NCBI GenBank assembly: GCA_021773235.1
Contig: JAJFKL010000043.1
Span: 14,072 to 78,071 of the forward strand
Length of the DNA stretch: 64,000 bases
Reading direction: 5' to 3'
Source: Gammaproteobacteria bacterium
Lineage (GTDB): Bacteria > Pseudomonadota > Gammaproteobacteria > Eutrophobiales > Eutrophobiaceae
Part shown: positions 40,142 to 60,400 of the stretch, in pieces
Layout: the number at the start of each line of letters is the position of its first letter
Position numbering within the stretch: position 1 is the first letter of the stretch
Made by a program: the position numbers and the translations under genes
Notes under the pieces: model-generated
What the model was told of the DNA's origin: nothing
What the model saw: the letters and a program-made list of their open reading frames with translations, nothing else
Database searches by the model: none

Positions 40142-40245
40142 GAAGATGAAACTCCTTTAAGATTACCGTTTTATATTATTATTATTACTTTATTCTATGC
40201 TTTCTCAGCTGAATATAAAGCATTATTAGCAATGTATTACCAAAT

Positions 40246-42535: not shown

Positions 42536-43486
42536 TTAGCTCTCTGTTTCTTCAAATTCTGATTCACTTTCTTTTTTACTACTTTCTGAGGATTCTTGCC
42601 ATGATAAAATGGAATAAGGTCTATTTATATATTGCTTCATTAACACAATAACTTCGAGTTTTGCATGTGTATCGTGAATGATTCCTTCACTGGAAATTGA
42701 AAAAATCTGGCCGATGGATTTAGACAAGTGCTTCGAGTCTATACCAATCAAGGGAGGAGGAGTCTGTGTGTCGGTAATATTCAACCTTGATTCTATAAAA
42801 TCATCCACTTGTTCCACACTGATGCCAGGTATCGCTAGTAATGCTTCTCTTGGAGCAGAATTTGGATTTATGCCGGCTTGATGTGAATGTATAGTTAGCG
42901 CAGGCTTCAATCTATTATAGATAGTAGTGGTCATGCCTAAAACCAATTGCAATTCATCCAATGAATTAAATGAACCGTCTTTTGCACCATACTCATAGTC
43001 GAGACGTTGATAATCATCATCTTCAGCACCATTAGTGCGTACTAAATTATCCTTGTCACGCCAGTCGAGAATTGCCTGTAGCAGTTGCAAATGATCTTCT
43101 TCGGTTGATTCAGAAGCATCGCTTGATTGAATTAAACCATACAAGAGATCGGAGCGGGCTGTATTTAAATCTATTTTTCCCGATTCATCAATTATTTTTA
43201 AGTTGATATTGCCTTGTTTAAATTCATGTGAATAATTAGTTCCGTCAGTTTTCCAGATCTGCTCTACCCTCGGTTTTAATAGCTCAGATACGGCCTGCCA
43301 TACACCCGCTTCTGCAATGGCTTTTGCTTGGTTTGAATGAACAAGGTTTGCAGTTAACCCGGTTTCTATTCTAACCATACGGCTATAACCAGTAGCTAAT
43401 ATAATGAGTAACGACAGCATCCACAGCACAATCACAAGAGCGATACCTGATTGACGACTTTTAGATTGAATTACTTTTTGTGTCAT
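42536..43486 (-). CDS. gspK: T2SS minor pseudopilin GspK
   Basis: 316 aa. N-terminal SGIALVIVLWMLSLLIILA hydrophobic segment typical of GspK. Confidence 0.75.
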   Translation of the reverse strand: MTQKVIQSKSRQSGIALVIVLWMLSLLIILATGYSRMVRIETGLTANLVHSNQAKAIAEAGVWQAVSELLKPRVEQIWKTDGTNYSHEFKQGNINLKIIDESGKIDLNTARSDLLYGLIQSSDASESTEEDHLQLLQAILDWRDKDNLVRTNGAEDDDYQRLDYEYGAKDGSFNSLDELQLVLGMTTTIYNRLKPALTIHSHQAGINPNSAPREALLAIPGISVEQVDDFIESRLNITDTQTPPPLIGIDSKHLSKSIGQIFSISSEGIIHDTHAKLEVIVLMKQYINRPYSILSWQESSESSKKESESEFEETES

Positions 43487-43490
43487 CTGA

Positions 43491-44168
43491 TTAAATTGGA
43501 GATTGAGAGGTTTTACTCAGAACAAATTGCGCTTGTCCTCTGACAAAATGTGAGTGCAACGGGATCTTTAGTTCAGGCCAGTCTTGATTTTCATCTGTGC
43601 CGAGAATTTTTATACTGATAAGAAGAGGTAAAAATTGATCGTTCTGCCATTCATCTTGCCATTGCGGTGATTGATCTGCTTTTTCACGACCAAAGTAGGC
43701 GATTTCAATATCTTTTATATCTTCCAATAGCGTTACTTGCTCAAAATTTTCATTATCAAATGGATAAACATCTCCTCCAGCATGACGGTAATAGAAATCA
43801 AGATGATTCATGTCATCAGTGTTATTTATTTTCAGCGAGACCAGTTGTACGCCACCACCACCACGATGAGCAGGCAAAGTTGTTGTAAAACTTATTTCAT
43901 TATTTTTACCAGAAAACAGGAGTTTTTGCTTTTTATTGTCAGACCATAACAATGGCGTCATTTGAGTGAGCTGTCGTTGAATAAACTGAGCCACAATTCT
44001 GGTCTCATCATTGAGTGCTATTTTACGTTCAGTTGACTGCCAACTTTTGTTTGCAGTGAAAATAGTGCTAAAGAGTAAGACTAATATTAAACTGAGCAAG
44101 GTCATTGCGATGATTACTTCAATCAAGGTAAAGCCACTAGCGATTTTTATTTTAATATTATTCTTCAT
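43491..44168 (-). CDS. gspJ: T2SS minor pseudopilin GspJ
   Basis: 225 aa. Prepilin-type N-terminus GFTLIEVIIAMTLL. Confidence 0.75.
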   Translation of the reverse strand: MKNNIKIKIASGFTLIEVIIAMTLLSLILVLLFSTIFTANKSWQSTERKIALNDETRIVAQFIQRQLTQMTPLLWSDNKKQKLLFSGKNNEISFTTTLPAHRGGGGVQLVSLKINNTDDMNHLDFYYRHAGGDVYPFDNENFEQVTLLEDIKDIEIAYFGREKADQSPQWQDEWQNDQFLPLLISIKILGTDENQDWPELKIPLHSHFVRGQAQFVLSKTSQSPI

Positions 44169-44593
44169 GAGACTGGAATCATTTTTAAAGTGCTCAATTT
44201 AATGGAGCGAGTTTTTCCAAGGCTGTCCCAGCTTACTTCAACTTCGACCTCACGTTTGACAATACGAAATCTAGTTTCAAGTGTTCCATAATCATCGTCT
44301 GGTATCTGAATATTAGTGTTCCAGTGGTATTTGTTATTTTCAACGCCTGAAAGCACGCCATTATCAGATAGTTCGTCTATTCCGATGCTAGCCAATTTAG
44401 ATTGAGCCACAATTACTGCGCGCGAATATTCATCACTTAATACCGTTGAACGTGCGCCAGTACTATAGATTTGAAAAATAACACCAAGGCTTAAGGCAAA
44501 TATAGAGAAAGCAACCAACACCTCTAGTAATGAAAACCCTTTATGCTTCTTAATCATGTTTTGGGAAGGATCTTGATTTTCCCGGTTAACCAA
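44165..44593 (-). CDS. gspI: T2SS minor pseudopilin GspI
   Basis: 142 aa. Prepilin-type N-terminus KGFSLLEVLVAFSIFAL. Confidence 0.75.
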   Translation of the reverse strand: MVNRENQDPSQNMIKKHKGFSLLEVLVAFSIFALSLGVIFQIYSTGARSTVLSDEYSRAVIVAQSKLASIGIDELSDNGVLSGVENNKYHWNTNIQIPDDDYGTLETRFRIVKREVEVEVSWDSLGKTRSIKLSTLKMIPVS

Positions 44594-45009
44594 TTTACAT
44601 CGATCAAATACTCTTTCTTTTCAAAAGCTAGTTTTATTTGACCACCGGTTGAACTGCCGTCTGGAAAAAAACGGATACGACCTTCCTTTTCAGATAGTTG
44701 CTCTGAACGGGCTGTAATTATAGAAAGGGAGGACGATTCAGGAATGGTTAATGTTTTTTCTTTTTCATCAACAGTGAATGTTTTATTTTCTATGTTTAAA
44801 CTGAGTGTTGTTTCATGCTGACGGGATATCGCAAGGCTACGCGTTTTCTTTAGATTAGAGGCTAACTCTCGCGTTGCTGTTTTAGTTTGACTGCTAGCAA
44901 TTACATTCGGTAAAAAGGGTGGCACTATAGTCAATATCAATGCGAGTATGACAAAAACAACCAAAAGCTCGAATAGTGTGAATCCAGTATTGGTGTGTTT
45001 GATTCTCAT
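44554..45009 (-). CDS. gspH: T2SS minor pseudopilin GspH
   Basis: 151 aa. Prepilin-type N-terminus GFTLFELLVVFVILAL. Confidence 0.75.
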   Translation of the reverse strand: MRIKHTNTGFTLFELLVVFVILALILTIVPPFLPNVIASSQTKTATRELASNLKKTRSLAISRQHETTLSLNIENKTFTVDEKEKTLTIPESSSLSIITARSEQLSEKEGRIRFFPDGSSTGGQIKLAFEKKEYLIDVNWLTGKIKILPKT

Positions 45010-45033
45010 AAGGTATTACACATCGCCGGATGT

Positions 45034-45456
45034 CTATTCCCAGTTATTAATGTCCTTATCATCTTTTTCCCCGCCAGTTGTATTATCAGCACCTAAGGTA
45101 TAGAGATCATAGGGGCCATTTTGACCTGGCTCGACATAATGATATGGATTACCCCAGGGGTCGGTCGGTACTTTCTTTTTCTTTAAATAGGGGCCATTCC
45201 AACTTTCAAACCCTGCCGGTTGCGTGGAGAGAGCCTGCAAGCCTTCATCAGAGCTTGGGTAACGACTATTGTCGAGATAAAACAGATCAAGTGCAGCGCC
45301 TATATCTTCAATTTGCAGTCTGGCGGTATCAGATTTTGCCCCACCTACGTACTTCATGACCTGAGGTCCGACTAAGCCAGCCAATAAGCCAAGAATGACA
45401 AGCACAACAAGTAATTCAATTAAGGTAAAGCCAATCTGTTTTTTTGTATTCATCAT
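45034..45456 (-). CDS. gspG: T2SS major pseudopilin GspG
   Basis: The track ORF (196 aa) is over-extended. The start is probably the internal MMNTKKQIGFTLIELLVVLVILGLLAGLVGPQVM (about 141 aa), the classic GspG N-terminus. Confidence 0.85.
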   Translation of the reverse strand: MMNTKKQIGFTLIELLVVLVILGLLAGLVGPQVMKYVGGAKSDTARLQIEDIGAALDLFYLDNSRYPSSDEGLQALSTQPAGFESWNGPYLKKKKVPTDPWGNPYHYVEPGQNGPYDLYTLGADNTTGGEKDDKDINNWE

Positions 45457-45504
45457 AAAATTAATATTAACCATGTGACAATTTATATTTAAGTTAAGGA
45501 TGCT

Positions 45505-45656
45505 TCTATAAATAGTAATTTTTCTGTGAGTGCAAGGAATCATTGCGCGCAGAACCGGAATGTATAAATAATACATGAGGAGATCCTGCTCTGTGAGCAT
45601 TTGAGCACAGTGTTGACACCGCAATCGCGGAAAAAGTGTATTTATAGAGGTGTTCT
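45505..45656. repeat. intra-operon repeat element, copy B (between gspF and gspG)
   Basis: Homologous to 23888..24009. Both copies abut the stop codon of the upstream minus-strand gene. Carries an extra about 25-nt insert relative to copy A. Confidence 0.6.
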
Positions 45657-46889
45657 TTAGACAACAAGTTCATTTAGTCCCAATATTGCAACAAGAATAG
45701 ATAATATAATGACTGCAATCATACCACCAAGCCCAAGTATAAGAACGGGTTCGACTAAGGTCAGCATGCGTTTAATCAAAGAGTTTGTTTCCTGATCATA
45801 AATATCGGCAATTTTTAATAGCATATTCTCTAATTGCCCGGTTTCTTCGCCTACTGCTATTAATTGTATCGCGAGTTGAGGAAAGCGTTGTTCTTTACTT
45901 AATGCTTCTGCAAGTCGACCGCCTTGTTCAAGATTGTGTGTGACCGTGTCCATTACTTCAGCAATGATGCGGTTATTGATAACCTCGCGCACGATGGACA
46001 CACCCATTAATAAAGGAACGCCATTACTGAGTAGCGTACCTAAAGTACGGGAGAATCGTGACACTTCAATTTTCGAGATCAATTCACCATAAAGCGGTAT
46101 TGAAAGAAGAAAGTTATCCCAGCGCCAACGTTTTTCTGGATCTTCAAGTTGTCGTTGAAATAACCAATAGCCACCCACAGCTAATATAGGAAAGGCCCAC
46201 CAAAAACTTTGGAATAGTTCTGCTGTTCCAAACACAAGCTGTGTTGATAAGGGGAGTGCTTGACCGACATCTTCAAATAAAGGCACAAATTGAGGCACGA
46301 CAAACACCATTAACGCGATCACAGATATTATGGCAATGAAAAATAAAATTAGTGGATATATTAATGCAGAAATAATGGTTGAACGCATTTCAGCGCTGCG
46401 CTCAAGATAATCTGATAATCGTTGTAAGACTACTTCTAATGCACCACCAGCTTCACCCGCACGGATCATGTTGAGATAGAGGCGACTAAAACTTTTGCCT
46501 TGCGCTTCCATTGCATCTGACAAGGATGAACCGCCTTGAACGCGGGTATAAATATTATTCACCAAAGAGGCAACAACCGGGTTAGAGCTGACACCTTCTA
46601 AGGTTTGTAAGGCCTGATCAAGTGGTAACCCTGCATGCAAGAGTGTAGCGAGTTCTCTTGTCATGATCGTAATATGATTGGCATTTAATTGACCGTTATT
46701 AAAACGCGGTAATTTGAATGAACGATTTGTATTTCTCTTTACTTTAGAGGCTTCAATTGCGCTGATTGGGATATGACCAGAGTTCTGTAATTTTTCAATC
46801 GCAATAGACTGCGAAGCAGCCTCCATTTCACCTTCCAATTTTTTGCCGCTACTCGTTACAGCTTTATAGAAATAAGTGGGCATGATCAT
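45657..46889 (-). CDS. gspF: T2SS inner-membrane platform protein GspF
   Basis: 410 aa. Two GspF repeats. 3 TM. Confidence 0.9.
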   Translation of the reverse strand: MIMPTYFYKAVTSSGKKLEGEMEAASQSIAIEKLQNSGHIPISAIEASKVKRNTNRSFKLPRFNNGQLNANHITIMTRELATLLHAGLPLDQALQTLEGVSSNPVVASLVNNIYTRVQGGSSLSDAMEAQGKSFSRLYLNMIRAGEAGGALEVVLQRLSDYLERSAEMRSTIISALIYPLILFFIAIISVIALMVFVVPQFVPLFEDVGQALPLSTQLVFGTAELFQSFWWAFPILAVGGYWLFQRQLEDPEKRWRWDNFLLSIPLYGELISKIEVSRFSRTLGTLLSNGVPLLMGVSIVREVINNRIIAEVMDTVTHNLEQGGRLAEALSKEQRFPQLAIQLIAVGEETGQLENMLLKIADIYDQETNSLIKRMLTLVEPVLILGLGGMIAVIILSILVAILGLNELVV

Positions 46890-48613
46890 TCACGAGTAAC
46901 GCGCATAACATCGTCTATTGTTGTAATGCCTTTTAGCGCTTTTTTAATGCCATCGATTTGCATGGTGTCCATGCCTTCATTAATCGCTTCACTTTGTAAG
47001 GTCGTGCCGTCAGCATGAGATAAGATAAGTCGTCGTATGGATTCAGAAATTAATAAAAATTCATTTATAACACTGCGGCCAAGATAACCATTATCCATAC
47101 AACCAACACACCCCACCGGCTCGTATAAGGTTATCTCATTACTTGTTTCATACTGGTCAAGTTTTAACTCGTCGATTAACTCTGGCAGAGGCTGAAAAGA
47201 TTTTCGGCATGCGCCACACAATACTCTCACCAGACGTTGTGCAAGAATGCCATTTAAGGTGGAGGTTAAGAGATAATCTTCAACTCCCATATCGAGTAAG
47301 CGAGTAAGCGAACTACCCGCATCGTTAGTGTGCAATGTAGAAAAGACAAGATGGCCGGTCAAAGCTGATTGCACAGCAATACTCGCCGTTTCAAGATCAC
47401 GCATTTCGCCAATCATTATAACATCGGGGTCTTGTCGGACAATGGAGCGCAGCGCATCACCAAAGTTAAGACCAATCTGCGGTTTTACCTGAATTTGATT
47501 GACCCCTTCGAGTTGATACTCCACAGGATCTTCTACCGTAAGTATTTTTTTGTCTGGCGTATTGAGTTGGTCTAGTGCGGTGTATAGCGTGGTCGTTTTA
47601 CCACTACCTGTCGGACCCGTGACTAAAATAATGCCATGCGGAAGTTTTAAAACTTCCTGCACCTTTTCTTTATTCGCTTTAGAAAAGCCGAGTGAATCAA
47701 AACTAAGACTGACATGTTCTTTATCAAGGATACGCATTACCAGACTTTCACCATGCATGGTCGGAACAGTCGACACACGTAAATCAATCAATTTACCTTG
47801 TGTACGTATCTGAATACGTCCGTCCTGTGGTAATCGACGCTCAGCGATATTCATCTTTGCCATAATCTTGACTCTGGAGATAACAGCAGCAGTTGAACGG
47901 GCAGGGGGTGCTTCAGCTTCCTGCAAAACACCATCAATGCGATAGCGTATTTTTAAGCGACTTTCAAAGGGTTCAATGTGAATATCTGAGGCACGTGACT
48001 CAATAGCATTATTAATGACTAAGCTAACGAGTCTTATAACGGGCGCTTCAGCAGCCAAATCTTTTAAGCGTTCAATTGAATCATCCTCAGTGCCATTCTG
48101 GTCAATATCAATCTCTTCAACGATATCTGCGAGTTTTGTTTGACCATCGCCATAGAATCGTTCCAACGCATTTTCAATTTGTGAAATTGAAGCAATCTTT
48201 GGAATGACTTCTTTATTCGTTGCCAGTTTAATTGCTTGCAATGTATAAGAATCGGTTGGGTCTGCCATTGCGACAACAAGACTTTCCTCCTGTTGTTCAA
48301 TTGGAATAACAAAATATTCTTTTAAAAATTTTGCAGGAAGAGCATCTTCCAATAGAGGTGTATTAGGGAAATCATCATTATTTATTTCAGCAAGATTAGT
48401 GACCTTGCTAAGAGTCGACGCCATGTCACGGTCGGAGATAAGTCCTAATTGAACCAAAAGAATACCTAAAGCAGTGCCATTTTCATTATGTAGTTCTATT
48501 ATTCGTGTTAATTCATCCTGCTTCAATTTTCCTTCAGACAGTAGGAATTGAATGACGTCGCCATTGTCAGCATTCTCAGTAGAAGTCTTTTGTTCAGGTA
48601 AAGTCATTAACAT
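46886..48613 (-). CDS. gspE: T2SS ATPase GspE
   Basis: 575 aa. Walker A GPTGSGKTT. Tetracysteine CGAC...CVGC. Asp and His boxes. Confidence 0.9.
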   Translation of the reverse strand: MLMTLPEQKTSTENADNGDVIQFLLSEGKLKQDELTRIIELHNENGTALGILLVQLGLISDRDMASTLSKVTNLAEINNDDFPNTPLLEDALPAKFLKEYFVIPIEQQEESLVVAMADPTDSYTLQAIKLATNKEVIPKIASISQIENALERFYGDGQTKLADIVEEIDIDQNGTEDDSIERLKDLAAEAPVIRLVSLVINNAIESRASDIHIEPFESRLKIRYRIDGVLQEAEAPPARSTAAVISRVKIMAKMNIAERRLPQDGRIQIRTQGKLIDLRVSTVPTMHGESLVMRILDKEHVSLSFDSLGFSKANKEKVQEVLKLPHGIILVTGPTGSGKTTTLYTALDQLNTPDKKILTVEDPVEYQLEGVNQIQVKPQIGLNFGDALRSIVRQDPDVIMIGEMRDLETASIAVQSALTGHLVFSTLHTNDAGSSLTRLLDMGVEDYLLTSTLNGILAQRLVRVLCGACRKSFQPLPELIDELKLDQYETSNEITLYEPVGCVGCMDNGYLGRSVINEFLLISESIRRLILSHADGTTLQSEAINEGMDTMQIDGIKKALKGITTIDDVMRVTRE

Positions 48614-48845: not shown

Positions 48846-49841
48846 ATGTCTATATTGATGGGATGGAGTAAACAAATAATCTCTGCTTCGAAGTTATTAT
48901 TCATTTCTTTATTATGTCTGAGCTTACACTCATATGCTGATACGCAACGTATTATTGAATATGGATACGATGGTGCAGGTAATATAATCAGTATTAGCTC
49001 GACAAGAAATTTAAACTCGCCTGTCATCTCAGATGTATCACCAAACCGTGTGCGCATCAACTCAAACATAGCCTTTACAGCAACAGGTACTGATCTGAAT
49101 AACACGCACGTAACGACTGATCACGTTGACTTAGTCGTTAGTAATGTTAATACCGCTGCCACGACAATCACGTTTGAACTAGATGCCGCAAACAGTGTTC
49201 CACTAGGACAGCATACGTTAACATTTACGACGCTACTCGGTAGTGTAACAGCACTGGTTGAAGTAGTATCCGAGATTCCAACTATTATGGTATTACCATC
49301 ACCTCTTACGTTGGAACCGGGTGGTGAAGTTATTACACTCGATGTTTTTTTTACCGCCAGTGATATAGTTGATCAGACATTAAGCATTTCTATCCCTGAT
49401 CCAAACATTGCGACTGTCAATGTTAGCAGCATTACGATCCTTGCCGGGCAAACCAGCGCAGCACAAACGATTCAGATCACCAGTAATAATCTCGGTTTTA
49501 CTTCACTGGATATTACAACGCCTGATTTGGTGGATGGGCATGTCAATCTATTTGTCACAGATCGTTTCGTTCCCGGAGTAGGGACACACACAACAAATGC
49601 AAAACCTATAAGTTTATTTATTCCTTCAGCTATCAGTGGACAAGGAACCACACAGATATCGCCATTGGTCAGCCCAGTACTCAGTGTCAATGTTGCCGAC
49701 AGTGCAAACGAAGATGTGGTGGTGTCGCCGGTTGTCTCACCCGTGCTGAGTGTGTTGATCAGTAATGAGACAACAACAACTAATTTAATAAGCCCAGTTG
49801 TCACACCTGTAATCAGTATTTTAAAGGAAGAAACGCCATGA
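48846..49841 (+). CDS. secreted protein with N-terminal YD-like motif and Ig/IPT-like domains
   Basis: 331 aa. Signal peptide. RIIEYGYDGAGNIISI resembles an RHS YD repeat. Beta-rich Thr/Val repeats. C-terminal SPVxSPV repeats. First gene of the operon that ends in the giant RHS gene. Confidence 0.6.
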   Translation: MSILMGWSKQIISASKLLFISLLCLSLHSYADTQRIIEYGYDGAGNIISISSTRNLNSPVISDVSPNRVRINSNIAFTATGTDLNNTHVTTDHVDLVVSNVNTAATTITFELDAANSVPLGQHTLTFTTLLGSVTALVEVVSEIPTIMVLPSPLTLEPGGEVITLDVFFTASDIVDQTLSISIPDPNIATVNVSSITILAGQTSAAQTIQITSNNLGFTSLDITTPDLVDGHVNLFVTDRFVPGVGTHTTNAKPISLFIPSAISGQGTTQISPLVSPVLSVNVADSANEDVVVSPVVSPVLSVLISNETTTTNLISPVVTPVISILKEETP

Positions 49842-49903
49842 ACAATTCACTTCAATTTATTACGATTAAATTCATCAAACCCCGGTTTAATGGGAGGACA
49901 ATT

Positions 49904-51415
49904 ATGGAAACCTTGAATAATAAAAATCACTTGTCAGCAACCATTGGCGCATTACTGTTGGTATTAAGTCAATCAGTCACTGCGTTTGACAGTGGCAGTA
50001 CCGGTGCCGATGGTGTCTTAAACCCGACCATAGATACAGTATTAAATGTGCCCGAGCCAGACGGTATTTTTAATTTCACCAGTGTTAATATTCCCTTAGG
50101 TGTGACAGTGACCTTCGCACCTAATACGACCAATACACCAGTGACTTTTTTGTCTAGCGGTGATGTCCAAATTGATGGGACGCTAAGCGTGAATGGCGGT
50201 GATTCTTTTGATGTGGGTACTGCAGGTGATAGTAATCTTGCTGATGATGGGCAACCTGGGTTAGGTGGGCCTGGTGGCTTTAATGGTGGTACTGGCGGAG
50301 ATTTTGGAGCCTCCGAGCGTGGTAGTGATGGACAAGGACCTGGTGCCGGCGGTGGCGGACGATTTCGTACTGGCACCACAGGTTGCGGCGGTGCCGGCGG
50401 CAGCTTTTCGACTTCTGCTGACGATGGAAGTGTAGTTGGTTTTGGTTGTGTTGGAAATAACGGCTTACGTGGGCCGAATTATGGGACAAACGAGCTTTCC
50501 CCGTTGATTGGCGGTTCTGGCGGCGGCGGTGCTGCTAGTGGGACTGTCTATAGAGGTTCTGGCGGCGGCGGTGGCAGCGGCGCGATTCTTATTGCAGCAA
50601 CCGGCATTATTACTGTGAATGGTCTACTTAGCGCGAGAGGTGGAAACTCAGGCGATAGTGCTGGCACGAGTGTGGAAGGTATCGGTGGTACCGGTGGTGC
50701 CGGTAGTGGTGGTGCAATTCGCCTAATCGCTACAGAAATAACAGGTGTAGGTACGTTAAATGTTGAAGAAGGTGTACCCGGTGATTCCATATCACAAAAC
50801 GGAAGAGAAGGTGGAAAGGGTGGCCGCGGACGCATTAGACTGGAATCGCCTTTAGCCACGTTTGCAGGCAGTATAATTCCATCCAATAGCTCAAGTATCT
50901 TTTCTCTTAGCAGTGTTCCGGGCAACGTCTTTGTCGCCGGCATGCCCAGTTTGTCAATCACCACAGTTGATGGCCAAACTGCACCAGTGTTGCCTACCGG
51001 TAATCTTGATCCAGCTAATACCGACATTACCTTGCCGGTCAGCACAGTAAATCCTGTAACAATCAATTTTGCGACTACGAATGTACCTGTGAATGGTACG
51101 ACAGCCGTCGACTTAACAGTTGTCCCAGAGTTTGCAACTGCAATAACAGTAACTTCAACAGTCTTAGCAGGGGATACAAATTCAGCCACAGCCAGTGCAT
51201 CCGTGTCTATCCCGCCGGGATTAAGTGTGTTGCAAGCCGAACTGAGTTTCACTGTGACGGTGGCGATGGGTGAAGAATTTTCTCGCTTTGCAGAAGGTGA
51301 GCAGGTTGCAAAAGTAAAGCTTAATGTCAATCCTGAAGGTCAATCCGAAACAACGTTTGTCACAATCAGTGGGGAAGAATTTACCTTTCTCTCGAATGCT
51401 ATCGCAATGCGCTGA
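49904..51415 (+). CDS. secreted glycine-rich (GGxGG) beta-helix-like protein
   Basis: The track ORF starts at 49838 (ATGA overlap with the upstream gene). The signal peptide begins at an internal Met (METLNNKNHLSATIGALLLVLSQSVTA). Contains long GGxGGxG tracts. Confidence 0.55.
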   Translation: METLNNKNHLSATIGALLLVLSQSVTAFDSGSTGADGVLNPTIDTVLNVPEPDGIFNFTSVNIPLGVTVTFAPNTTNTPVTFLSSGDVQIDGTLSVNGGDSFDVGTAGDSNLADDGQPGLGGPGGFNGGTGGDFGASERGSDGQGPGAGGGGRFRTGTTGCGGAGGSFSTSADDGSVVGFGCVGNNGLRGPNYGTNELSPLIGGSGGGGAASGTVYRGSGGGGGSGAILIAATGIITVNGLLSARGGNSGDSAGTSVEGIGGTGGAGSGGAIRLIATEITGVGTLNVEEGVPGDSISQNGREGGKGGRGRIRLESPLATFAGSIIPSNSSSIFSLSSVPGNVFVAGMPSLSITTVDGQTAPVLPTGNLDPANTDITLPVSTVNPVTINFATTNVPVNGTTAVDLTVVPEFATAITVTSTVLAGDTNSATASASVSIPPGLSVLQAELSFTVTVAMGEEFSRFAEGEQVAKVKLNVNPEGQSETTFVTISGEEFTFLSNAIAMR

Positions 51416-51420
51416 GTAAT

Positions 51421-54400
51421 ATGCGCGTAAGGGACAAGGCACTAAGTAAAATGAACAAACAACAGAGTGAGACTAAACACACGACGTTATCGCGACGCGT
51501 GTCAATACGGAAGCGTAAATGGTTAGTCGGTGTAACAGCGATGACAATTATTGCTGGTATTACAGCAACAGCCGTTTTGGATTTTAGTAAACAACGCTCG
51601 CTTAAAAATGCTAAAACAGTCACGCCTGCTCACGTGACTGTTAATAATAAACTTGCTCAAGCTGCTCTTATTAATAATTACGCTCAACTCCCCTTACAGT
51701 TCGAACAAAACCGTGGTCAAACCAATGACGAAGTGGAATACGTCTCACGTGGCTCTGGTTATACCTTATTTCTAACCCCAACTGAAACCGTGCTGACGTT
51801 ACAACGAAGCAGCGGCAAACAAAACGAGCAAGCCGTTGTTAGAACCTCCTTTGTCAATGCCAATGTGCCAGTAGTCTTTAATGGCAACAACGTCTTGCCC
51901 GGCAAAGTGAATTACCTCATTGGCCGTGATGAAAGCAAATGGCTCACCGATATCCCGACCTATACCGATGTCATCGCCAAAGAGATCTACCCTGGCATCG
52001 ACCTGCGTTATCACGGTGACCAAAGGCAACTCGAATATGATTTTATTGTTGCACCGGGAGTCAATACCGATGACATCCAACTACAGTTTAGTGGCGTTGA
52101 CCTATTACGTATCGGTGAAGAAGGGCAGTTAGTTATCGAAACAGCACAAGGCACACTGCAGCACAAAAAACCGATCGTCTATCAAGACATCAGCGGTGAA
52201 CGAATTACTGTCGAAGGTAACTACCTTCTGAGTGAAAATAAAATAGTAAGTTTTAAGTTAGGGCAATACGATCCAAACCATGAACTAATAATCGATCCTA
52301 TCCTCGACTACTCGACGTACCTTGGAGGTGAAGCGGATGACAGAGGCCTAGCCATAGCGGTTGATGATGCAGGCAATGCTTATGTTGCGGGCACCACCGT
52401 ATCGGCAAGTTTCCCGGTCGTGAATGCTTACCAAACAAGCCTTAGTGGGAGTAAAGATACCTTTATCGCCAAACTGAATGCCAATGGTGATGCTTTGGTC
52501 TACGCGACCTACTTTGGTGGCAGTGGTGATGAAGATGACGACGATGATGATGATAGTGATGATGACTACGGTGAAGACGACGAAGACGATAATGACGAAG
52601 GCGATTCTGATAAAGATACCGGTAAAGACATTACTGTTGATGCCAATGGATATCTTTATATTACTGGCAGCACCAACTCCGATACTGACTTCCCCATCGT
52701 CAATGCCGTACAAAGTACTTACGGCGGTGGTGATCGCGATGCTTATGTCGCCAAACTCTCGGTCGATGGCAGCAGCTTACTTTTTTCCACCTACCTCGGT
52801 GGAAGTAATAAAGACAAAGGCTTTGGCATTGCTTTAAGCAATAATGGTAACGTCTTTGTTACGGGTAAGACCAAATCAAACAACTTCCCAACGACGGCCA
52901 ATGCTTATCAAACCAGCCATGCCGGTAACGGCGATGCGTATGTTGTGCAACTGGCGGGCGACGGTTCACAACTCAACTATGCTACCTACTTGGGTGGCTC
53001 TAAATCCGATAATGCAAAAGCCATTGCAATAGATAGTTCAGGGAATGCTGCTATCACTGGTGTTACCAAATCCAAGAATGATTTTCCGTTACACAATGCC
53101 CTGCAACCGAGCTTTGGTGGTGGCGGACGCGATGCCTATGTCGCACAACTCAATGCCAGTGGTAATGCACTAAACTACTCCACCTATTTAGGCGGTGCCA
53201 AAAAAGACAAAGGCCGCGGAATTACGATCGATAGTCATGACAACGTTATCGTAGTTGGTTTAACAAAATCCAAGACCGACTTTCCCTTAGTCAATTCTCT
53301 ACAGTCCACCTATGGTGGTGGCAGTGATGACGGCTTCATCAGCAAACTCAACAGTGCAGGCAGTGGCCTAACTTTCTCTACCTACCTCGGTGGTGAAAAG
53401 ACCGACAGACTAAATAGTGTTGTGGTCGATAGCAACGATGACATCTATGTTGTCGGCACCACCAAATCTACCAACGGAATTCCGACCACTGATGCCGAGC
53501 AGGCACAACTGTCTGGTAGCAAACGCGATGCCTTTATTACCAAACTGAGTCATGATGGCAGTAGTGTTATTTATGGTACTTACCTAGGGGGTAGCAAGAG
53601 CGACCGCGGTAAAGATATCGCCGTTGATGGACAAGATGCCTACATCACCGGTGTCACCAAATCCGATATTGATTTCCCCACCCTGAATGCTCTGCAACCT
53701 CTATTCGGCGGCAGTAATAAAGATGCGTTTGTTGTCAAAATAGCCGAAGAGGTTACCAATCAAGATCCAGAAATTACATCAACACCAATAACCGATGCAT
53801 TGGCAGGACAACTCTATAGCTATGATGTCGATGCGACCGATGCAGATGAAGACGATGTTTTAGTTTACAACCTACAAGTCTTCCCCACAGGTATGGTTAT
53901 TGATACCAACACAGGACTCATTAGTTGGACGCCGACTGTAATCGGGGTAGTCAATGTCACTGTTCAAGTCGATGACGGTAACAATGGTACTGCAACACAA
54001 AGTTACAGTATTAATGTTACCGATTCAGATGTGATCGCACCAACGATCACGATTACCTCACCGCAAGAGGGTTTAAACACCAATCAGGCAAACCAGACAA
54101 TCACGGGCACACTTGATGAAACGGCGACATTGACATTGAATGGTAATTTGGTTGCCGTTAATCTGGACTTAAGCTTTAGTGCTACTGTTACTCTAGTTGA
54201 AGGTGTAAATAGTTATACTTTTGAAGCCACCGATGCAGCAACCAATTTTGGTGCAGCGTCACTAACATTGAATTTGGATACAGTCTTACCTGTCGTCACG
54301 ATTACATCGCCACAAGATGGACTCGTTACTAATCAAACCACACAAACGATCATCGGTAGTCTAAGTGAACCTGCAACATTCACGATCAATGGACAAGCAG

Positions 54401-57400
54401 TTACCGTTAACCCTGATCTCAGTTTTAGCACTAATGTCATCTTAGTCGAAGGTGCGAATGCAATCACCATTGAAGCGACGGATGCCGTAAGCAATGTCGG
54501 CAATGCTGCGTTAACTTTAAACCTCGATACCGAACCACCCGTTATTACGATTAACGCACCACAAGATGGATTAATTACGAATCAATCAGCACAAACCATA
54601 ACCGGTAGTTTAAGCGAAACAACTACGTTAACGATCAATGGACAAACAGTCACGGTTAATCCTGACTTAACCTTTAGTACAGATGTCACCTTAGTTGAAG
54701 GTGCAAACAGTTATACTTTTGAAGCCACCGATGCAGCAACCAATCTTGATGCAGCGTCACTAACATTGAATTTGGATACAGTCTTACCTGTCATCACGAT
54801 TACATCGCCACAAGATGGACTCATTACTAATCAAACCACACAAACGATCATCGGTAGTCTAAGTGAACCTGCAACACTCACGATCAATGGACAAGCAGTT
54901 ACCGTTAACCCTGATCTCAGTTTTAGCACTAATGTCATCTTAGTTGAAGGTGCGAATGCAATCACCATTGAAGCGACGGATGCCGCAAGCAATGTGGGGA
55001 ATGCAAGCTTAACCTTAATCCTTGATACGGTTGCACCGGATATCACAATTACTGATCCGCTTGATGGCAGTTTAACCAACCTTGTTGATCAAACCATTAC
55101 CGGTAATTTGGATGAAATAGCAACACTGACATTTAATACGGCCAGCGTACCCGTTAACCCGGACAATACATTTAGCGTTGGCCCGGTTGCATTAATAGAA
55201 GGGGGTAACACGTTTACCTTTGAAGCGACAGATACGGCAGGCAATGTTAGCACACAATCGATAACAGTCACACTCGATACCATTGCGCCTGCCATTACCG
55301 TGAACGATCCGGTCGATGGCAGTGTCACCAATCAAGCAAACCAAACTATTACTGGCTCGGTTGATGAGGCTGGTGCCTTTAGGATTAACGGTACTGCTGT
55401 GACACTAAACTCGGACAATACTTTTAGTTCCGATGTGCTCTTGGTTGAAGGCGAAAACACGTTTACGCTTGAGATCACCGATGCGACAATGAATGTTAAT
55501 ACTCAAACCTTAACGGTAACATTAGATACTGTTGCAGCAGTAATCACAGTGGTAAGCCCACAAGAGGGGTTGGTTACCAACCAGGCAGCACAAACCATAA
55601 CGGGTAGCATAAACGAAACCGCAAGCCTAACAATTAACGGGCAAGCTGTGTCCATCAACCCGGACAATACTTATAGTTTTGCCGTTACCTTAATGGAAGG
55701 TGTCAATAGCTTTACTCTGGAAGCGATAGATACGGGGACAAACACAAGCACACAAAACCTAACTCTGAACCTGGATACCATTACACCGGTAGTCACGATT
55801 ACCAATCCGGCTGATGGTTTACTATCTAATAACCCAAGTCAACTGATAACGGGTAGTGTTAGTGAAGTGGCATCGTTAACCATTAATGGACAAGCAGTAA
55901 GCCTAAACCCGGACAATAGTTTTAGCTTTGGCCCAATCACTATGGCAGAAGGTGCGAATACCATCACCGCGATTGCGACGGATGCGGCAACGAATAGCAC
56001 AACCACTACCATTAATGTAAGTCTCGATACCGTGGCTCCGGTGATTAGCGTTACCAGCCCAGTTGATGGTGCGTTGACGAATCAAAGTCAAATTGTTGTA
56101 GCAGGGAGCTTAAGTGAACAAGGTAACCTCACAATAAATGGACAAGCTATCACAGTAAATCTGGATGGCAGTTTTAGTGCGATAGTTAGCCTTGTTGAAG
56201 GTGCAAATACAGTTACCTTAACGGCAAGCGATGCAGCAACGAATGTCAGTCAAAGTGTTCTAACCGTCAATAGTGATACGATTGCACCGATCATTAACAT
56301 TACGACGCCAATCAATCGCAGTAGCACTAACCAAGCAGCGCAATTGGTCACAGGCTCATTAAGTGAAGCAGCAACCTTATTAATAAACGGTCAGGCAGTC
56401 ACAGTGAACCCCGACTTAAGCTTTAGCTTTGGTCCGATCACATTGGCCGAAGGGGCAAACTCGATCAGCGTAAGCGCGACCGATGCGGCAACGAACAATA
56501 GTGCGGGTAACGTCAGTGTCACCCTGGATACAGTCATACCCACGTTAATCTTGGATAGCCCAACAGGGGACATCCTCACTAACCAATCAACCGTTAGCTT
56601 TAGCGGTAGCGTAGATGAAACGGTAAGTCTTACGATTAATGGTCAAGCGGTAACCCAAAATCCGGACAATACCTTTAGCGCAAATGTCACGGTAGCTGAA
56701 GGCAGTAATGTAGTCGATGTTGTTGCAACCGATGCAGGTGGTAATAGCGTCACACAAAGCATCAACATCACTATCGATACGATTGCACCAAGCACGCCGA
56801 TTATTAGCTTAACCAATCGCGGTAATCCGCTAAATGGAATCGTTATGGTGACGGGTTTACCCGGTGCCGCTGAGCCGGGAACATTAATACACGTTATTAA
56901 TCCCGTCACCAATTATGAAGCCTTGGTCTTGGCACAAAGCGATGGTAGCTTTAGTACCGATGTTGCTGGTTTCGCCAATGATATCTTTTCTATCATTACG
57001 ATGGATGCGGCAGGTAATATCAGCGCACCTGTAGTTTTGATTCCAAACCCACCATTAGCATTAACGCTGGATGCCATTGGTAACAAAACCGCGCCCTTAG
57101 GGCAAATTACTCGCTTTACGGTAACTGCAAATGACAGTGAAGGTAATGTAATCGCCTTAGGTTTAACGCCACTTCCATTACCCGCTGGTATGGAATACAA
57201 CATCGCAACAGGTGAATTCAGTTTCCGACCAACAAGCGGACAAGAAGGGGACTATAATTTAACCTTTAGTGCCTTATCGGGTGATGAGCGTGTAGTTGAA
57301 AATGTCACCGTTAATGTATCTGCACCAAACGCAGCAGATCCAACCGATTTAACCGGTCGTATTTTAGATGCCAGTAGCATGCAAGGTGGCACGATTGAAC

Positions 57401-60400
57401 CGATTGTCGGTGCAACCGTATCATTCCTCGCGACAGGCGTGAGTACAACGACGGATACACAAGGCTTCTTTACCTTAAGTGGTTTGCCTGCGAATGCAGA
57501 AGTATTTGATATCGATACCAGCACGGCACAAGCAGGACCGGGCGGTACCAGCTATGCCGGTTTCCGTGAACAGTTTCCGTTAGTGATTAACGTAACGAAT
57601 ATTGTTGAGCGACCGTTCTACTTACCACGGTTGGCAGCGGAAAGTTTAACTACCGTTGATCCTCTGGTAGAAACGATTGTTAATAACCCAACATTAGGCA
57701 TTGATTTAAGTATCGCTGCAGGAAATGCGATTAATGATTCAGATGGGCAACCGTTTACCGGACAGGTTTCGATTTCGGAAGTACCGCGTAATCTGGCACC
57801 AGCTAACTTACCCGAGTTTATGGATCCGACTTTATTATTCACAATCCAACCGGTCGGTGTGAGTTATACCGTACCCGCACCAATTACTATCGCCAACACT
57901 GAAGGCCATGCGCCTAATAGCGAAGTGGATCTCTGGTCGGTTGATCCGGATCTGGGTCAATTTGTGATCGTAGGTACCGGACAAGTTTCAGCAGATGGGT
58001 CTGAGATCGTAACGATCTCAGGTGGTATCCGTGCTAATGATTGGCATGCATTCCAGCCACCGAATCCGAATACCGGTGGTTCTGGTACTAATGGGAAGAA
58101 ACCATGCCCAACGTGTCCTGAGGAAGATCTTACTTCTACGGTTAGTTTGAACGACGGTCATATGGGAACGCGACATACGCTGCCAGCATATCGTTCGTTA
58201 GAAACTTCACGTGCGTTAACTTTTAGCTATCGCACCTTCAGAGCCTATCCGAGTCCATCAATTCCATATAATAGTGCTATCGATGTCCGTAGTACGGTAC
58301 CAGCAACAGTCTCTTATGATCTGGAAGTCGGTGGCCTGAAACAAGGTCAGGAAGTCTTTATTGATACTTCCGGCTTCAGTGAAGGACTAACTGAAGCATT
58401 TAGTACAGCGATATCATTTGATGCAGCAGAATTTGATTCAGGAATGTATGACTATCGTTTGAAAGTTACCAGTAATTTTAATGGCGGTTCACGTCAAAGT
58501 TTGATTGTTGAAGATGTCGTAATGGTTGTGAATGAACAGCAAAGTCCTTTTGGTGCAGGCTGGATGCTAGAAGGTTTGTATAGCCTTCGGTTTAATGAAG
58601 ATAACAGTGTCACCATGATTGCGCCGAATGGTAACTCCATTTCTTATGATGCCACAGCGACACCGGATCTGTTTGATTCTCCAGACAGCGATTACGCTGT
58701 TTTCAACCGTAACCCGGATGGCAGCTACACCCATACTGAAAAAGATGGTGTCAAAATGCACTTTAATGCCGAAGGACAAATTACCGAGCATGAAGATCGT
58801 AATAACAATATCACGGCTTATGCCTATGATGTTGACGGTAAGTTAATAACGATTACTGATCCAGTGGGCTTAATCACGACCTTTGCTTATGACATAAATG
58901 GCTTGTTAGAAACAGTAACTGATCCAGCTACACGTGTGACTAACTTTGAATACGATGCCACGGGTAATATGACCAAGGTAACTTATCCTGACAATACCTT
59001 CGAGACCTATGAATACGATAATCGTCACTTGATGACGGCACACGAAGATGAACGCCAAAATCGTTTTACCGATCGTTACGATGCCTTTGGTCGAATTATT
59101 GATGGTACCTTGCCGGATGGTACGGTTCGCGCGGGAATTGGACAGAACTCAGCAGCATTAATTGATGTTTCCAGCGGCGTTGGTACAAGTGTCAATCCAG
59201 CACCCGTCATGCGTCCAGCAGATGTTGATGGTGAATACGTTGATGGTCGTGGCAATCCTTCTAATAAAGAACTAGATCCACAGGGCCGTGCAACATTAGA
59301 AATGGACGAAATAGGGCGTATGACATTGCATACGCGCGACGCCGATTCCAATCCAACACAGACAACACGTCCGATAGGTTCCGTTGTAACTCGAACCTTT
59401 GATACCTTCGGTAATGTGCTAACGCAGAAAGAAGAGTTTAATACGGCGACGACAACGTATACCTACGATCCATTTAGTTTGGTAACAACAGTAACAAACC
59501 CACGTAACCACACGACAACAATCACGCGTGATCCGGCTGATGGTAACCCATTAACAATTGTAAATGAGTTAGGTCATACAACGACCATGGTTTATGACAG
59601 CCGCGGCCTTGTTACCTCAATGACCAGCCCGAACGGATTAGTAACGACGTATACGTACAACACCGAAGGCCTCATGGACACCAAGACTGAAACACCGCCA
59701 GTCAGTAGCCCGGGTAATGTGCGTCTTTGGACTTATGCCTATTACCCAACGGGACTTTTACAAACTGTGAATACACCCGATGGGATTACACTGACCTATA
59801 CTTATGATGACCGTAGCTTCCTGACCAGTGTTACCGATAATCTCAATCAATCGATTATCTACACCTACGATGACCATAAAAACGTGACTCGAACAGAAAC
59901 GCGCAGTAGCGATGGTAGCTTGGCCTTGCTCGTTGACAGCATCTACGATAATCGTAATCGCCTGACACAGACTAAAGCGCCGCACGTTGGCATCGAAGAA
60001 TCCATCACGCAACGCATACTCGATGAAAATAGTAATTTGATTGGCTTAATTGATCCAAACGGTAATCCCCGCAGTAATGTCTATGATGCTTTCAATCGAC
60101 TCGATAATAACACCCATAGAGAGGGGGGTATTACGGACTACACTTATGATGATCAAGATCGTATTACCAAAGTCGAAGCCCCGAACGGTGTCGTTACTGA
60201 CTATGAATACGACATCATCAGTCGTCGCACCAAAGAGATAAGCCCAGACCGAGGCACGATTACTTATGTGTATGACTTGGCTAACAACGTCACCACCATC
60301 ACCGAGGGCAGAGGCATTGTTGCCAGCATGACCTATGATGAATTGGAACGTGTGGGCACCAAGACCTACCCGAACACCATCATTGGTAAAAATGAGAATG

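What the first reader, a model, noticed from the sequence alone, without database searches (positions are those of the whole stretch)
48846..51415. Two uncharacterised secreted proteins precede the RHS gene in one operon
Gene 1 begins right after its signal peptide with a lone YD-like repeat (YGYDGAGNIISI), followed by Ig/IPT-like beta domains and SPV repeats. Gene 2 is a GGxGG-rich, probably beta-helical protein. Both are tightly spaced with the giant RHS gene (6-bp gap before 51421). They could be chaperone/usher-like partners, components of a Tc-toxin-like A/B/C assembly, or adhesin co-factors. No known family was recognised.
Basis: partly seen in the sequence, partly recalled or inferred. 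Interest (0 to 1): 0.55.

Follow-up and report, generated by a model that had tools for sequence, protein, structure and literature searches.

The report
Conserved secreted partner pair of RHS toxin
Two unannotated secreted proteins upstream of a giant RHS toxin gene belong to a gene cassette conserved across several bacterial phyla and sometimes next to a type II secretion system, so they may help explain how signal-peptide-bearing RHS toxins are exported or displayed.

Summary
Two co-oriented ORFs with signal peptides lie directly upstream of a 3553-aa RHS gene.

- **Gene 1 (331 aa):** signal peptide, one true YD hairpin, two Ig/TIG domains, then a disordered tail with three SPV repeats.
- **Gene 2 (503 aa from the start with a ribosome-binding site, 49904):** signal peptide, an invariant N-terminal motif, a glycine-rich beta-helix and an Ig-like C-terminal region. 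It matches nothing in Pfam, NCBIfam or PHROGs, and no solved structure significantly.
- **Family size:** the gene 2 family has about 5300 representative clusters (50% identity).
- **Synteny:** in 39 of 47 informative loci from several diderm phyla, a gene 2 homologue is followed (median gap 44 bp) by a giant exported protein. In 58 of 61 it is preceded by an Ig-rich protein.
- **Co-variation:** a YD-tagged upstream protein pairs with an RHS giant (18 of 20). A beta-helix-tagged upstream protein pairs with a non-RHS giant (16 of 16). Gene 2 stays constant.
- **T2SS link:** type II secretion genes flank the cassette in the window and in 9 of 86 related loci.

Best reading: a three-part exported module, probably T2SS-dependent, in which gene 1 docks on the RHS shell and gene 2 is a common adaptor. 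The mechanism is inferred. Chaperone–usher and Tc-toxin membership are not supported.

The parts
48846..49841 (+). Gene 1 (331 aa; the identical database protein starts at 48858): short member of the class A 'YD-tagged TIG-stalk' family
   Evidence: ORF. Homologous to the first ~290 aa of ~980-aa upstream proteins in related loci (E=1e-31). Family alignment.
48846..48938 (+). Gene 1 signal peptide (aa 1-31, predicted cleavage SYA|DTQ)
   Evidence: Sequence, read by eye. AF2 models a helix at 3-28.
48948..49007 (+). Gene 1 single YD repeat, modelled as a beta-hairpin (aa 35-54)
   Evidence: Y41, D42 and G45 are invariant in 22 homologues. The family profile hits YD repeats of solved Rhs and teneurin-like structures at E down to 2e-19. 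Hairpin in the AF2 model.
49020..49556 (+). Gene 1 tandem Ig-like domains (TIG-like aa 59-141; second Ig aa 147-237)
   Evidence: Pfam TIG E=0.012. pLDDT 82-95. Foldseek finds tandem Ig proteins.
49569..49838 (+). Gene 1 disordered Ser/Pro/Val-rich tail with three SPV repeats, equivalent to the inter-domain linker motif of the long homologues
   Evidence: pLDDT below 40. Repeats at aa 271, 293 and 315. Motif matches in L003.
49904..51415 (+). Gene 2 (503 aa from the SD-supported start; longest ORF starts at 49838): member of an undescribed Gly-rich beta-helix plus Ig family
   Evidence: SD sequence GGGAGG. More than 2000 homologues with no Pfam domain. 5301 representative clusters.
49904..50023 (+). 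Gene 2 signal peptide (aa 1-27) and near-invariant mature N-terminal motif FDSGSTGADG (aa 28-40)
   Evidence: Invariant or near-invariant S30-G37. Modelled as disordered.
50024..50923 (+). Gene 2 glycine-rich beta-helix (aa ~41-340)
   Evidence: AF2 model with blocks of pLDDT 75-98. 32.6% Gly in aa 100-320. The same module is repeated 6-8 times in giant proteins P0144 and P0183.
50945..51409 (+). Gene 2 C-terminal Ig-like region, read as two beta-sandwich domains (aa ~348-502)
   Evidence: Beta strands in the AF2 model. Best PDB fold matches are CBM21/Ig-like, E about 0.03.
51421..62082 (+). Giant Sec-exported RHS polymorphic toxin (3553 aa): DUF7948, SBBP propeller, He_PIG, 11 Glucodextran_B/Big_13 repeats, CarboxypepD_reg-like, DUF6531, YD shell, Rhs core, Cys-rich C-terminal domain
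   Evidence: Pfam and NCBIfam hits.
61979..62563 (+). DUF6714 protein, candidate immunity gene
   Evidence: Pfam E=3.7e-11. Its position immediately after the toxin domain matches the small ORFs after RHS genes in related loci.
38000..48613 (-). Complete type II secretion cluster (GspE, F, G, H, I, J, K, PilN-type L, T2SSM_b, unknown 213 aa, GspD), divergent from gene 1 across a 232-bp spacer
   Evidence: ORFs. Pfam hits. Same divergent layout in L085. T2SS genes lie next to the cassette in 9 other loci.

Best explanation
Genes 1 and 2 are dedicated partners of the giant RHS toxin. Together they form a conserved cassette: an Ig-stalk protein with a variable N-terminal tag, a constant Gly-rich beta-helix/Ig protein, a giant exoprotein, and an immunity gene.

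**Shown**
- All three proteins carry Sec-type signal peptides (read by eye from the sequences).
- The gene order is conserved across Gamma-, Beta- and Deltaproteobacteria, Nitrospirota and Verrucomicrobia.
- The whole cassette duplicates as a unit.
- The N-terminal tag of the upstream protein co-switches with the type of giant protein, while gene 2 stays constant.
- T2SS clusters are found next to the cassette more often than a rough background estimate predicts.

**Inferred**
- After Sec export the three proteins assemble in the periplasm or on the cell surface.
- The exposed YD hairpin of gene 1 docks on the YD shell of the RHS protein by beta-sheet extension, as TcB and TcC jointly build one shell (from my own knowledge of Tc toxins).
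- Gene 1's Ig domains form a stalk or spacer.
- Gene 2 is the common adaptor or presentation subunit that links the giant protein to its export route, or to the cell surface or target.
- Outer-membrane passage is by the neighbouring T2SSM_b-type T2SS.
For: **Synteny**
- 39 of 47 loci with enough downstream sequence have a same-strand ORF of at least 1000 aa within 700 bp of the gene 2 homologue. The median gap is 44 bp and complete sizes are 1324-3100 aa.
- 58 of 61 loci have a same-strand upstream ORF of at least 250 aa.
- The cassette is tandemly duplicated as a unit in L085/L088.

**Co-variation**
- YD-tagged upstream protein with RHS giant: 18. YD-tagged with non-RHS giant: 2.
- Beta-helix-tagged upstream protein with RHS giant: 0. 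Beta-helix-tagged with non-RHS giant: 16.
- Fisher p=4e-8.
- The two classes are interleaved at four or more places on a neighbour-joining tree of gene 2.

**The YD tag is real**
- It is modelled as a hairpin of moderate confidence (pLDDT blocks 59-78).

**Export**
- Signal peptides are present in gene 1, gene 2 and all giant proteins examined.
- T2SS genes lie within 10 kb in the window and in 9 of 86 other loci. They occur in at least three different gene orders and in both cassette classes.
- The binomial p is 2e-7 to 1e-3 for an assumed background of 1-3%.
- The T2SS subtype is T2SSM_b in all three cases where the M gene was in view: the window, L038 and L085.

**Module context and the open question**
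- The gene 2 beta-helix module also occurs inside giant proteins that carry Big_5, TSP3_bac and Laminin_G_3 domains.
- A 2026 paper on bacterial teneurin-like YD toxins states that no delivery machinery is evident for them (PMC13018210).
Against: - No physical interaction has been modelled or measured. The docking idea rests only on co-variation and the Tc-toxin precedent.
- About 90% of related loci show no T2SS genes within the 10-kb flanks. Examples are L001-L005, L086 and L087.
- The RHS protein is about 390 kDa and carries a closed shell. As far as I know that would be larger than any established T2SS substrate.
- The N-termini of the giant proteins are heterogeneous, so no common docking domain for gene 2 was identified.
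- The co-variation statistic is not phylogenetically corrected. The neighbour-joining tree has no support values.
- The window's gene 1 is a short form (331 aa against about 980 aa in the closest syntenic relative, L085) and may have reduced function.
Confidence: 0.5

Rival explanations
1. Periplasmic assembly factors. Genes 1 and 2 stay in the periplasm and act as folding or holding factors or secretion pilots for the giant multi-domain protein. They would resemble the substrate-specific T2SS chaperones encoded next to their substrates in Acinetobacter, rather than being part of the final extracellular complex.
For: - The accessory genes are encoded tightly next to the substrate, and each duplicated RHS gene has its own copy.
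- T2SS adjacency is seen.
- Substrate-specific T2SS chaperones are a known precedent (PMC4713064, title and abstract listed).
Against: - As far as I know, the Acinetobacter chaperones are small and membrane-anchored.
- Gene 2 is a 50-kDa beta-helix/Ig protein with a cleavable signal peptide. Its module recurs inside giant proteins with Big, TSP3 and Laminin_G domains.
- Long gene 1 homologues are ~100-kDa strings of TIG domains, which look more like surface stalks than chaperones.
Confidence: 0.17
2. Surface fibre or adhesin complex exported by a route other than the T2SS. The three proteins build a cell-surface adhesive or toxin-presenting structure, but outer-membrane passage uses some unidentified pathway. 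The T2SS adjacency would then be incidental or regulatory.
For: - Most related loci lack nearby T2SS genes.
- All components are built from domains typical of surface adhesins: Ig/TIG, beta-helix, Big_13 and He_PIG.
Against: - No alternative transporter gene (Omp85/TpsB, usher, T1SS, autotransporter barrel) recurs in the flanks. The only recurrent neighbour families are the cassette itself, a PAP2-like gene, a Sel1 protein and T2SS genes.
- T2SS adjacency is retained in at least three different gene orders.
Confidence: 0.2
3. Tc-toxin-like tripartite toxin. Gene 1 and/or gene 2 play the role of the A component, a receptor-binding translocator that takes the toxin out of the RHS shell and into a target cell.
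For: - Three co-transcribed genes end in an RHS shell protein.
- A YD segment on a separate polypeptide recalls the split TcB/TcC shell.
- The family profile also touches TccC2 and YenC2 YD repeats.
Against: - No TcA, TcB or SpvB domains were found.
- No helical pore-forming region appears in either model.
- Gene 2 also serves non-RHS giant proteins that have no shell.
- All parts carry Sec signals. [quoted passage not shown]
Confidence: 0.05
4. Functionally independent neighbours. Genes 1 and 2 are ordinary secreted adhesin-like proteins that merely travel with giant exoprotein genes, for example on the same mobile island.
For: No direct interaction evidence exists, and some loci carry transposases nearby.
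Against: - The order, orientation and short spacing are kept at 40-50% identity across phyla.
- The cassette is duplicated as a unit.
- The tag co-switches with the class of giant protein.
Confidence: 0.08

Closest known systems
Sec-dependent RHS / bacterial teneurin-like polymorphic toxins (e.g. WapA; the TLPs of PMC13018210)
   Same: A giant signal-peptide-bearing protein with a YD shell, Rhs core, polymorphic C-terminal toxin and downstream immunity gene. A CarboxypepD_reg (TTR-like) domain and a DUF6531 plug precede the shell. Homologous giant proteins hit the TEN_YD-shell family.
   Different: - Searching the TLP paper for operon, upstream, neighbour and accessory terms turned up no upstream partner genes, and the paper says no delivery machinery is evident.
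- Here two conserved secreted partners and a recurrent T2SS neighbourhood are found.
- The N-terminal region here (DUF7948, SBBP, Big repeats) differs from the TIP or lipoprotein N-termini reported for TLPs.
Tc (ABC) toxin complexes
   Same: A multi-gene toxin in which YD repeats from two polypeptides (TcB and TcC) build one shell. That is the precedent for the proposed docking of the gene 1 YD hairpin onto the RHS shell.
   Different: - There is no TcA-like translocator and no SpvB or TcB domains.
- All parts here are Sec-exported.
- Here the RHS shell is encoded in one protein.
- The constant partner (gene 2) also accompanies non-RHS giant proteins.
T6SS Rhs effectors with PAAR/VgrG and EagR chaperones
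   Same: An RHS toxin accompanied by dedicated accessory genes encoded immediately upstream.
   Different: - There is no PAAR, VgrG or DUF1795 domain, and none of the window genes I annotated is a T6SS gene.
- The proteins carry signal peptides, which T6SS effectors lack as far as I know.
T2SS substrates with adjacent dedicated accessory proteins (Acinetobacter LipA/LipB, CpaA/CpaB) and T2SS-secreted Ig-like adhesins (InvL)
   Same: Sec-exported substrates encoded beside specific helper genes, and an Ig-domain adhesin that uses a T2SS (PMC4713064 and PMC9245377, listed).
   Different: - Here the helpers are large secreted beta-helix/Ig proteins, not small membrane-anchored chaperones.
- Here the substrates are 1300-3500 aa.

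Membership tests
Chaperone-usher pathway | PapD-like periplasmic chaperone (two Ig-like lobes; Pfam PF00345/PF02753) | tested here: not met
   No such Pfam or NCBIfam hit in gene 1 or gene 2, even at E<=1.
Chaperone-usher pathway | Outer-membrane usher: ~800-aa beta-barrel (PF00577) | tested here: not met
   Gene 2 models as a beta-helix plus Ig-like region, not a barrel. No usher hit in the cassette proteins.
Tc (ABC) toxin complex | TcA-type translocator and TcB (SpvB, TcdB mid domains) encoded with the TcC RHS protein | tested here: not met
   None of these domains appears in gene 1, gene 2 or the RHS N-terminal region.
Tc (ABC) toxin complex | YD shell assembled from two polypeptides | not testable with these tools
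   Gene 1 carries one YD hairpin. Whether it joins the RHS shell needs a complex prediction or an experiment.
T6SS Rhs effector | PAAR or VgrG-binding N-terminus, EagR/DUF1795 chaperone, no signal peptide | tested here: not met
   No PAAR, VgrG or DUF1795 hit. An N-terminal hydrophobic signal segment is present. None of the window genes I annotated is a T6SS gene.
Two-partner secretion (TpsA/TpsB) | Omp85-type TpsB with POTRA domains, and a TPS domain at the TpsA N-terminus | tested here: not met
   No such Pfam hit in gene 2 or the RHS protein. The gene 2 model is not a barrel.
RHS / YD-repeat proteins (for gene 1) | YD repeat motif | tested here: met
   One repeat with invariant Y41, D42 and G45 across the family. 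The profile hits YD repeats of solved Rhs structures at E=2e-19.
RHS / YD-repeat proteins (for gene 1) | Closed YD shell with Rhs-associated core and C-terminal toxin | tested here: not met
   Only 1-2 repeats are present, followed by Ig domains. There is no core or toxin. Gene 1 is YD-tagged, not an RHS protein.
T2SS substrates | Sec or Tat signal peptide | tested here: met
   Signal-peptide-like N-termini, read by eye, in gene 1, gene 2, the RHS protein and all homologous giant proteins examined.
T2SS substrates | Secretion abolished in T2SS mutants | not testable with these tools
   Only genomic adjacency is available: the window, plus 9 of 86 related loci.

The most novel reading that the evidence does not exclude
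The cassette defines an unrecognised, T2SS-coupled export and presentation system for giant Sec-dependent exoproteins, present across diderm phyla.

- A constant Gly-rich beta-helix adaptor (the gene 2 family, about 5300 clusters) would serve every cassette.
- An exchangeable tagged stalk protein would match the cargo, with a YD tag for RHS cargo.
- Together they would mount the cargo on the cell surface or deliver it.

If so, this would be the missing delivery machinery for signal-peptide-bearing RHS and teneurin-like toxins.
Probability: 0.3. Interest if true: 0.8.

Novelty: new variant of a known kind. Interest (0 to 1): 0.62.

Why it matters
RHS/YD polymorphic toxins are well understood when they ride on the T6SS or in Tc complexes. 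How the many signal-peptide-bearing RHS and teneurin-like toxins of diderm bacteria leave the cell and reach a target is still open. A 2026 structural paper on bacterial teneurin-like proteins says so explicitly (PMC13018210).

This locus supplies concrete candidates:
- a very large family with no Pfam, NCBIfam or PHROGs match and only 'hypothetical protein' labels from sources (gene 2);
- a YD-tagged stalk family (gene 1), both with strict synteny to giant exoproteins;
- a recurrent T2SS neighbourhood.

The hypothesis can be tested directly in cultured carriers. It would also give a functional context to thousands of hypothetical proteins.

Tried and rejected
**Family and structure searches that found nothing useful**
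- Pfam, NCBIfam and PHROGs scans of gene 2, including all 38 aligned family members one by one: no family.
- PDB sequence search with the gene 2 profile: only chance-level hits.
- Foldseek of the gene 2 model against the PDB: nothing at E<=0.001. The best hits are CBM21/Ig matches to the C-terminal domains, plus one tailspike at probability 0.09.
- Foldseek against viral models: giant-virus 'collagen-like' Gly-rich proteins (E 1e-7 to 1e-10, TM 0.33-0.39). I judged this a shared glycine-rich solenoid prediction, not informative about function.

**Homology tests that were negative or limited**
- Gene 1 against gene 2: no similarity. Their merging in my clustering was caused by fused or over-extended ORFs.
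- Class B upstream N-terminus against class B giant N-terminus: similar by eye, but the HMM search was negative.
- A common N-terminal docking domain across giant proteins: not found. The N-termini fall into several unrelated clusters.
- Profile search for gene 1 relatives in the word-indexed database: only 22 hits, because the family is too divergent for the prefilter.

**Other**
- The exact-sequence look-up of the window's own gene 2 protein found no contig, and no source names exist.
- Six literature searches found no description of this cassette. The 2012 polymorphic-toxin survey uses 'T2SS' only as a label for signal-peptide-bearing toxins.
Full report
**1. Observation**

The + strand carries three co-oriented ORFs:
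- 48846-49841 (331 aa)
- 49838-51415 (525 aa)
- 51421-62082 (3553 aa)

The third is an RHS protein. It has DUF7948, SBBP propeller repeats, He_PIG, eleven Glucodextran_B/Big_13 repeats, a CarboxypepD_reg-like domain, DUF6531, RHS/YD repeats and an Rhs-associated core. A DUF6714 ORF follows at 61979-62563.

Gene 2 most likely starts at ATG 49904. A GGGAGG ribosome-binding site lies 7 nt upstream, and the identical database protein is 503 aa. That leaves 62 nt after gene 1. The gap to the RHS ATG is 5 nt. Terminator-like hairpins across 48400-51700 are no more frequent than in shuffled sequence. One operon is therefore plausible.

**2. Anatomy of gene 1**

A signal peptide (…SLHSYA|DTQ, read by eye) is followed at once by RIIEYGYDGAGNIISI. 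On its own this scores weakly as a YD repeat (E=0.16). Family-level evidence is much stronger:
- In an alignment of 22 homologues at 23% mean identity, Y41, D42 and G45 are invariant. Many homologues carry a second YD repeat just before it.
- The family profile matches YD repeats of solved Rhs, Tse15, Tse5, teneurin-like and TccC/YenC structures, with E down to 2e-19.

The AF2 model (mean pLDDT 69) shows four parts:
- a beta-hairpin at 35-54
- two confident Ig-like domains at 60-141 and 147-237
- a disordered tail at 242-331

Foldseek returns tandem-Ig proteins such as LigA, titin and S-layer SbsC. The tail holds three (V/I)SPxx(S/T)PV(L/I)S(V/I) repeats. These correspond to a linker motif that separates TIG domains in long homologues.

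The window's gene 1 aligns with the first ~290 residues of ~980-aa proteins found upstream in related loci (E=1e-31 against L003). Short forms of 285-360 aa also occur in other loci, many of them from Nitrospirota.

**3. Anatomy of gene 2**

The signal peptide (…SVTA|FDSGSTGADG) is followed by a near-invariant mature N-terminus (S30-G37), which is modelled as disordered. The AF2 model (mean pLDDT 80.8) then shows short beta strands alternating with Gly-rich loops at about 40-340, which I read as a beta-helix, and beta strands at about 348-500, which I read as two Ig-like sandwiches. The protein is 18.7% Gly overall and 32.6% Gly in residues 100-320.

Nothing described matches it:
- Pfam, NCBIfam and PHROGs give no family, even when all 38 aligned members are scanned one by one.
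- The PDB sequence search gives only chance-level hits.
- Foldseek against the PDB finds nothing at E<=0.001.
- Viral-model hits are glycine-rich 'collagen-like' giant-virus proteins, which I regard as a shared solenoid prediction.

The family is nevertheless large. More than 2000 proteins were found in the word-indexed search. An exhaustive profile search found 5301 representative clusters at E<=1e-3 and 1399 at E<=1e-30, typically 450-530 aa. Two giant proteins contain 6-8 copies of the beta-helix module. The one that could be scanned, P0183, also has Big_5, TSP3_bac and Laminin_G_3 domains. I take this as a sign that the module works outside the cell.

**4. Conserved cassette**

Gene contexts of gene 2 homologues were collected from NCBI genomes and metagenomes. 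A further 79 loci came from one-genome-per-species contigs. They all show the same order: an Ig-rich protein, then the gene 2 homologue, then a giant protein.

- Among loci with at least 4.5 kb downstream, 39 of 47 have a same-strand ORF of at least 1000 aa within 700 bp. The median gap is 44 bp and complete sizes are 1324-3100 aa.
- 58 of 61 loci have a same-strand upstream ORF of at least 250 aa.
- Hosts include Gamma-, Beta- and Deltaproteobacteria/Desulfuromonadota, Nitrospirota and Verrucomicrobia.
- All giant proteins begin with signal-peptide-like N-termini.
- On one 154-kb contig the whole unit is tandemly duplicated: stalk protein, gene 2 homologue, RHS and a small ORF.

**5. Two classes with coupled partners**

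Upstream proteins fall into two classes:
- Class A: signal peptide, 1-2 YD repeats, then TIG domains.
- Class B: signal peptide, a beta-helix-like N-terminal domain, then TIG domains, about 1250 aa in total.

Class A pairs with RHS giant proteins (18 RHS, 2 non-RHS). Class B pairs with non-RHS giant proteins of about 2110-2150 aa carrying Big_7, Big_13 and CarboxypepD_reg domains (0 RHS, 16 non-RHS). Fisher p=4e-8.

On a neighbour-joining tree of gene 2 homologues the two classes are interleaved at four or more places. The upstream protein and the giant protein have therefore switched together several times, while gene 2 remained. The tree has no support values and the test is not phylogenetically corrected.

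The logic that follows: the YD tag is matched to the RHS cargo, and gene 2 is the common component.

**6. Link to type II secretion**

A complete T2SS cluster lies at 38000-48613 on the minus strand, divergent from gene 1 across a 232-bp spacer. It comprises GspE, F, G, H, I, J, K, a PilN-type L, T2SSM_b, a 213-aa unknown and GspD.

The same divergent layout occurs in L085, where the gene 2 homologue is 46% identical and the stalk protein is 979 aa. T2SS genes also lie directly upstream and co-directional in L034 (GspD and pseudopilins) and within the upstream flank in L010, L021 and L036. They lie directly downstream and co-directional in L055, L026 and L038 (GspG/F/E, an L-like gene, T2SSM_b, GspD).

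That makes 9 of 86 other loci, in at least three gene orders and in both classes. I estimated the background for a random 21-kb window at roughly 1-3%, which gives a binomial p of 2e-7 to 1e-3. Flanks were limited to 10 kb, and giant genes use up most of the downstream flank, so the fraction is a lower bound. Several complete contexts clearly lack a nearby T2SS: L001-L005, L086 and L087.

**7. Mechanism**

The best-supported reading is a three-part exported module.

Shown:
- Sec signals on all parts
- strict synteny
- duplication of the cassette as a unit
- coupling between tag and cargo
- enrichment of T2SS neighbours

Inferred:
- The gene 1 YD hairpin docks on the RHS shell by beta-sheet extension. 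From my own knowledge of Tc toxins, TcB and TcC jointly build one YD shell, which gives a precedent.
- The Ig domains act as a stalk.
- Gene 2 is a common adaptor or presentation subunit.
- The T2SS takes the proteins across the outer membrane.

Weak points:
- No interaction evidence exists.
- No common docking domain was found in the giant proteins.
- A ~390-kDa protein with a closed shell would, as far as I know, be an unusually large T2SS substrate.

**8. Comparison with known systems**

The cassette is not any of the following:
- a chaperone-usher system (no PapD or usher; gene 2 is not a barrel)
- a Tc ABC toxin (no TcA, TcB or SpvB; Sec-exported)
- a T6SS Rhs effector set (no PAAR, VgrG or EagR; none of the window genes I annotated is a T6SS gene)
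- a two-partner secretion pair

The cargo resembles Sec-dependent RHS and teneurin-like toxins. For these, a 2026 study reports no evident delivery machinery, and my term searches of that paper turned up no upstream partners (PMC13018210). Six literature searches found no description of the cassette.

**9. Verdict**

Conserved partnership holds and no known family fits. The specific chaperone/usher and Tc suggestions do not hold, gene 2 is not RHS-specific, and the T2SS neighbour was missed.
- I rate this as a new variant of a known kind: a polymorphic RHS toxin cassette with a previously undescribed accessory pair.
- Interest is 0.62. The main reason is that it makes the open question of Sec-dependent RHS delivery directly testable.

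Noticed in passing
window 38000-48613 (- strand): Complete T2SS cluster of the T2SSM_b subtype (GspE, F, G, H, I, J, K, PilN-type L, M_b, an unassigned 213-aa protein, GspD). It is divergent from the cassette. The same layout occurs in ENA contig L085.
   Followed up: yes
window 61750-62563: The RHS protein ends in a ~120-aa Cys-rich domain with a hydrophobic stretch after the DPxGL core; no family was found for it. The next ORF is a DUF6714 protein and is probably the immunity gene. Its longest start overlaps the RHS 3' end by 104 nt.
   Followed up: partly
window 52525-52620 (RHS aa ~369-400): A poly-Asp/Glu low-complexity insertion (DDDDDDSDDDYGEDDEDDNDEGDSDKD) lies inside the SBBP propeller region of the RHS protein.
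   Followed up: no
window 19650-37432: Lipid-related block: an MMPL (HpnN-like) protein, squalene-hopene cyclase, squalene synthase, and a PUFA-synthase-like PKS (2260 aa) with an adjacent NMO/FabD-insert protein. The closest RHS N-terminus is in a Methylococcales MAG (L007), so the window may come from a methanotroph-like gammaproteobacterium.
   Followed up: partly
window 63201-63473 (- strand): A Phd/YefM-type antitoxin gene (Pfam E=1.4e-11) lies just downstream of the cassette.
   Followed up: partly
L085 and L088 (ENA ERZ21788729 contig_20): The whole cassette (stalk protein, gene 2 homologue, RHS, small ORF) is tandemly duplicated next to the T2SS. In the second copy the giant gene is called as separate ORFs (265 aa with DUF7948, 74 aa, and 2512 aa with SBBP and the YD shell).
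   Followed up: partly
P0144 (7437 aa) and P0183 (4063 aa), from the representative library: The gene 2 beta-helix module is repeated 8 and 6 times inside these giant proteins. P0183 also carries Big_5, TSP3_bac and Laminin_G_3 domains; P0144 was too long to scan.
   Followed up: partly
L006, L021, L055 and 7 other loci, ~3 kb upstream of the gene 2 homologue: A ~444-aa protein with a weak PAP2 match lies about 3 kb upstream of the gene 2 homologue, mostly on the opposite strand. A ~190-aa Sel1-repeat protein sits upstream in 4 loci. Neither is present in the window.
   Followed up: partly
class B loci, e.g. L008:6016-9822 and L008:11535-17885: The N-terminal domains of the class B upstream protein and of its giant partner look by eye like the same beta-helix motif type (…GVVV.F/MG…L.V…FTS..D…GDW.G). 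This would mirror the YD tag / YD shell pairing of class A, but an HMM test found no significant similarity.
   Followed up: partly
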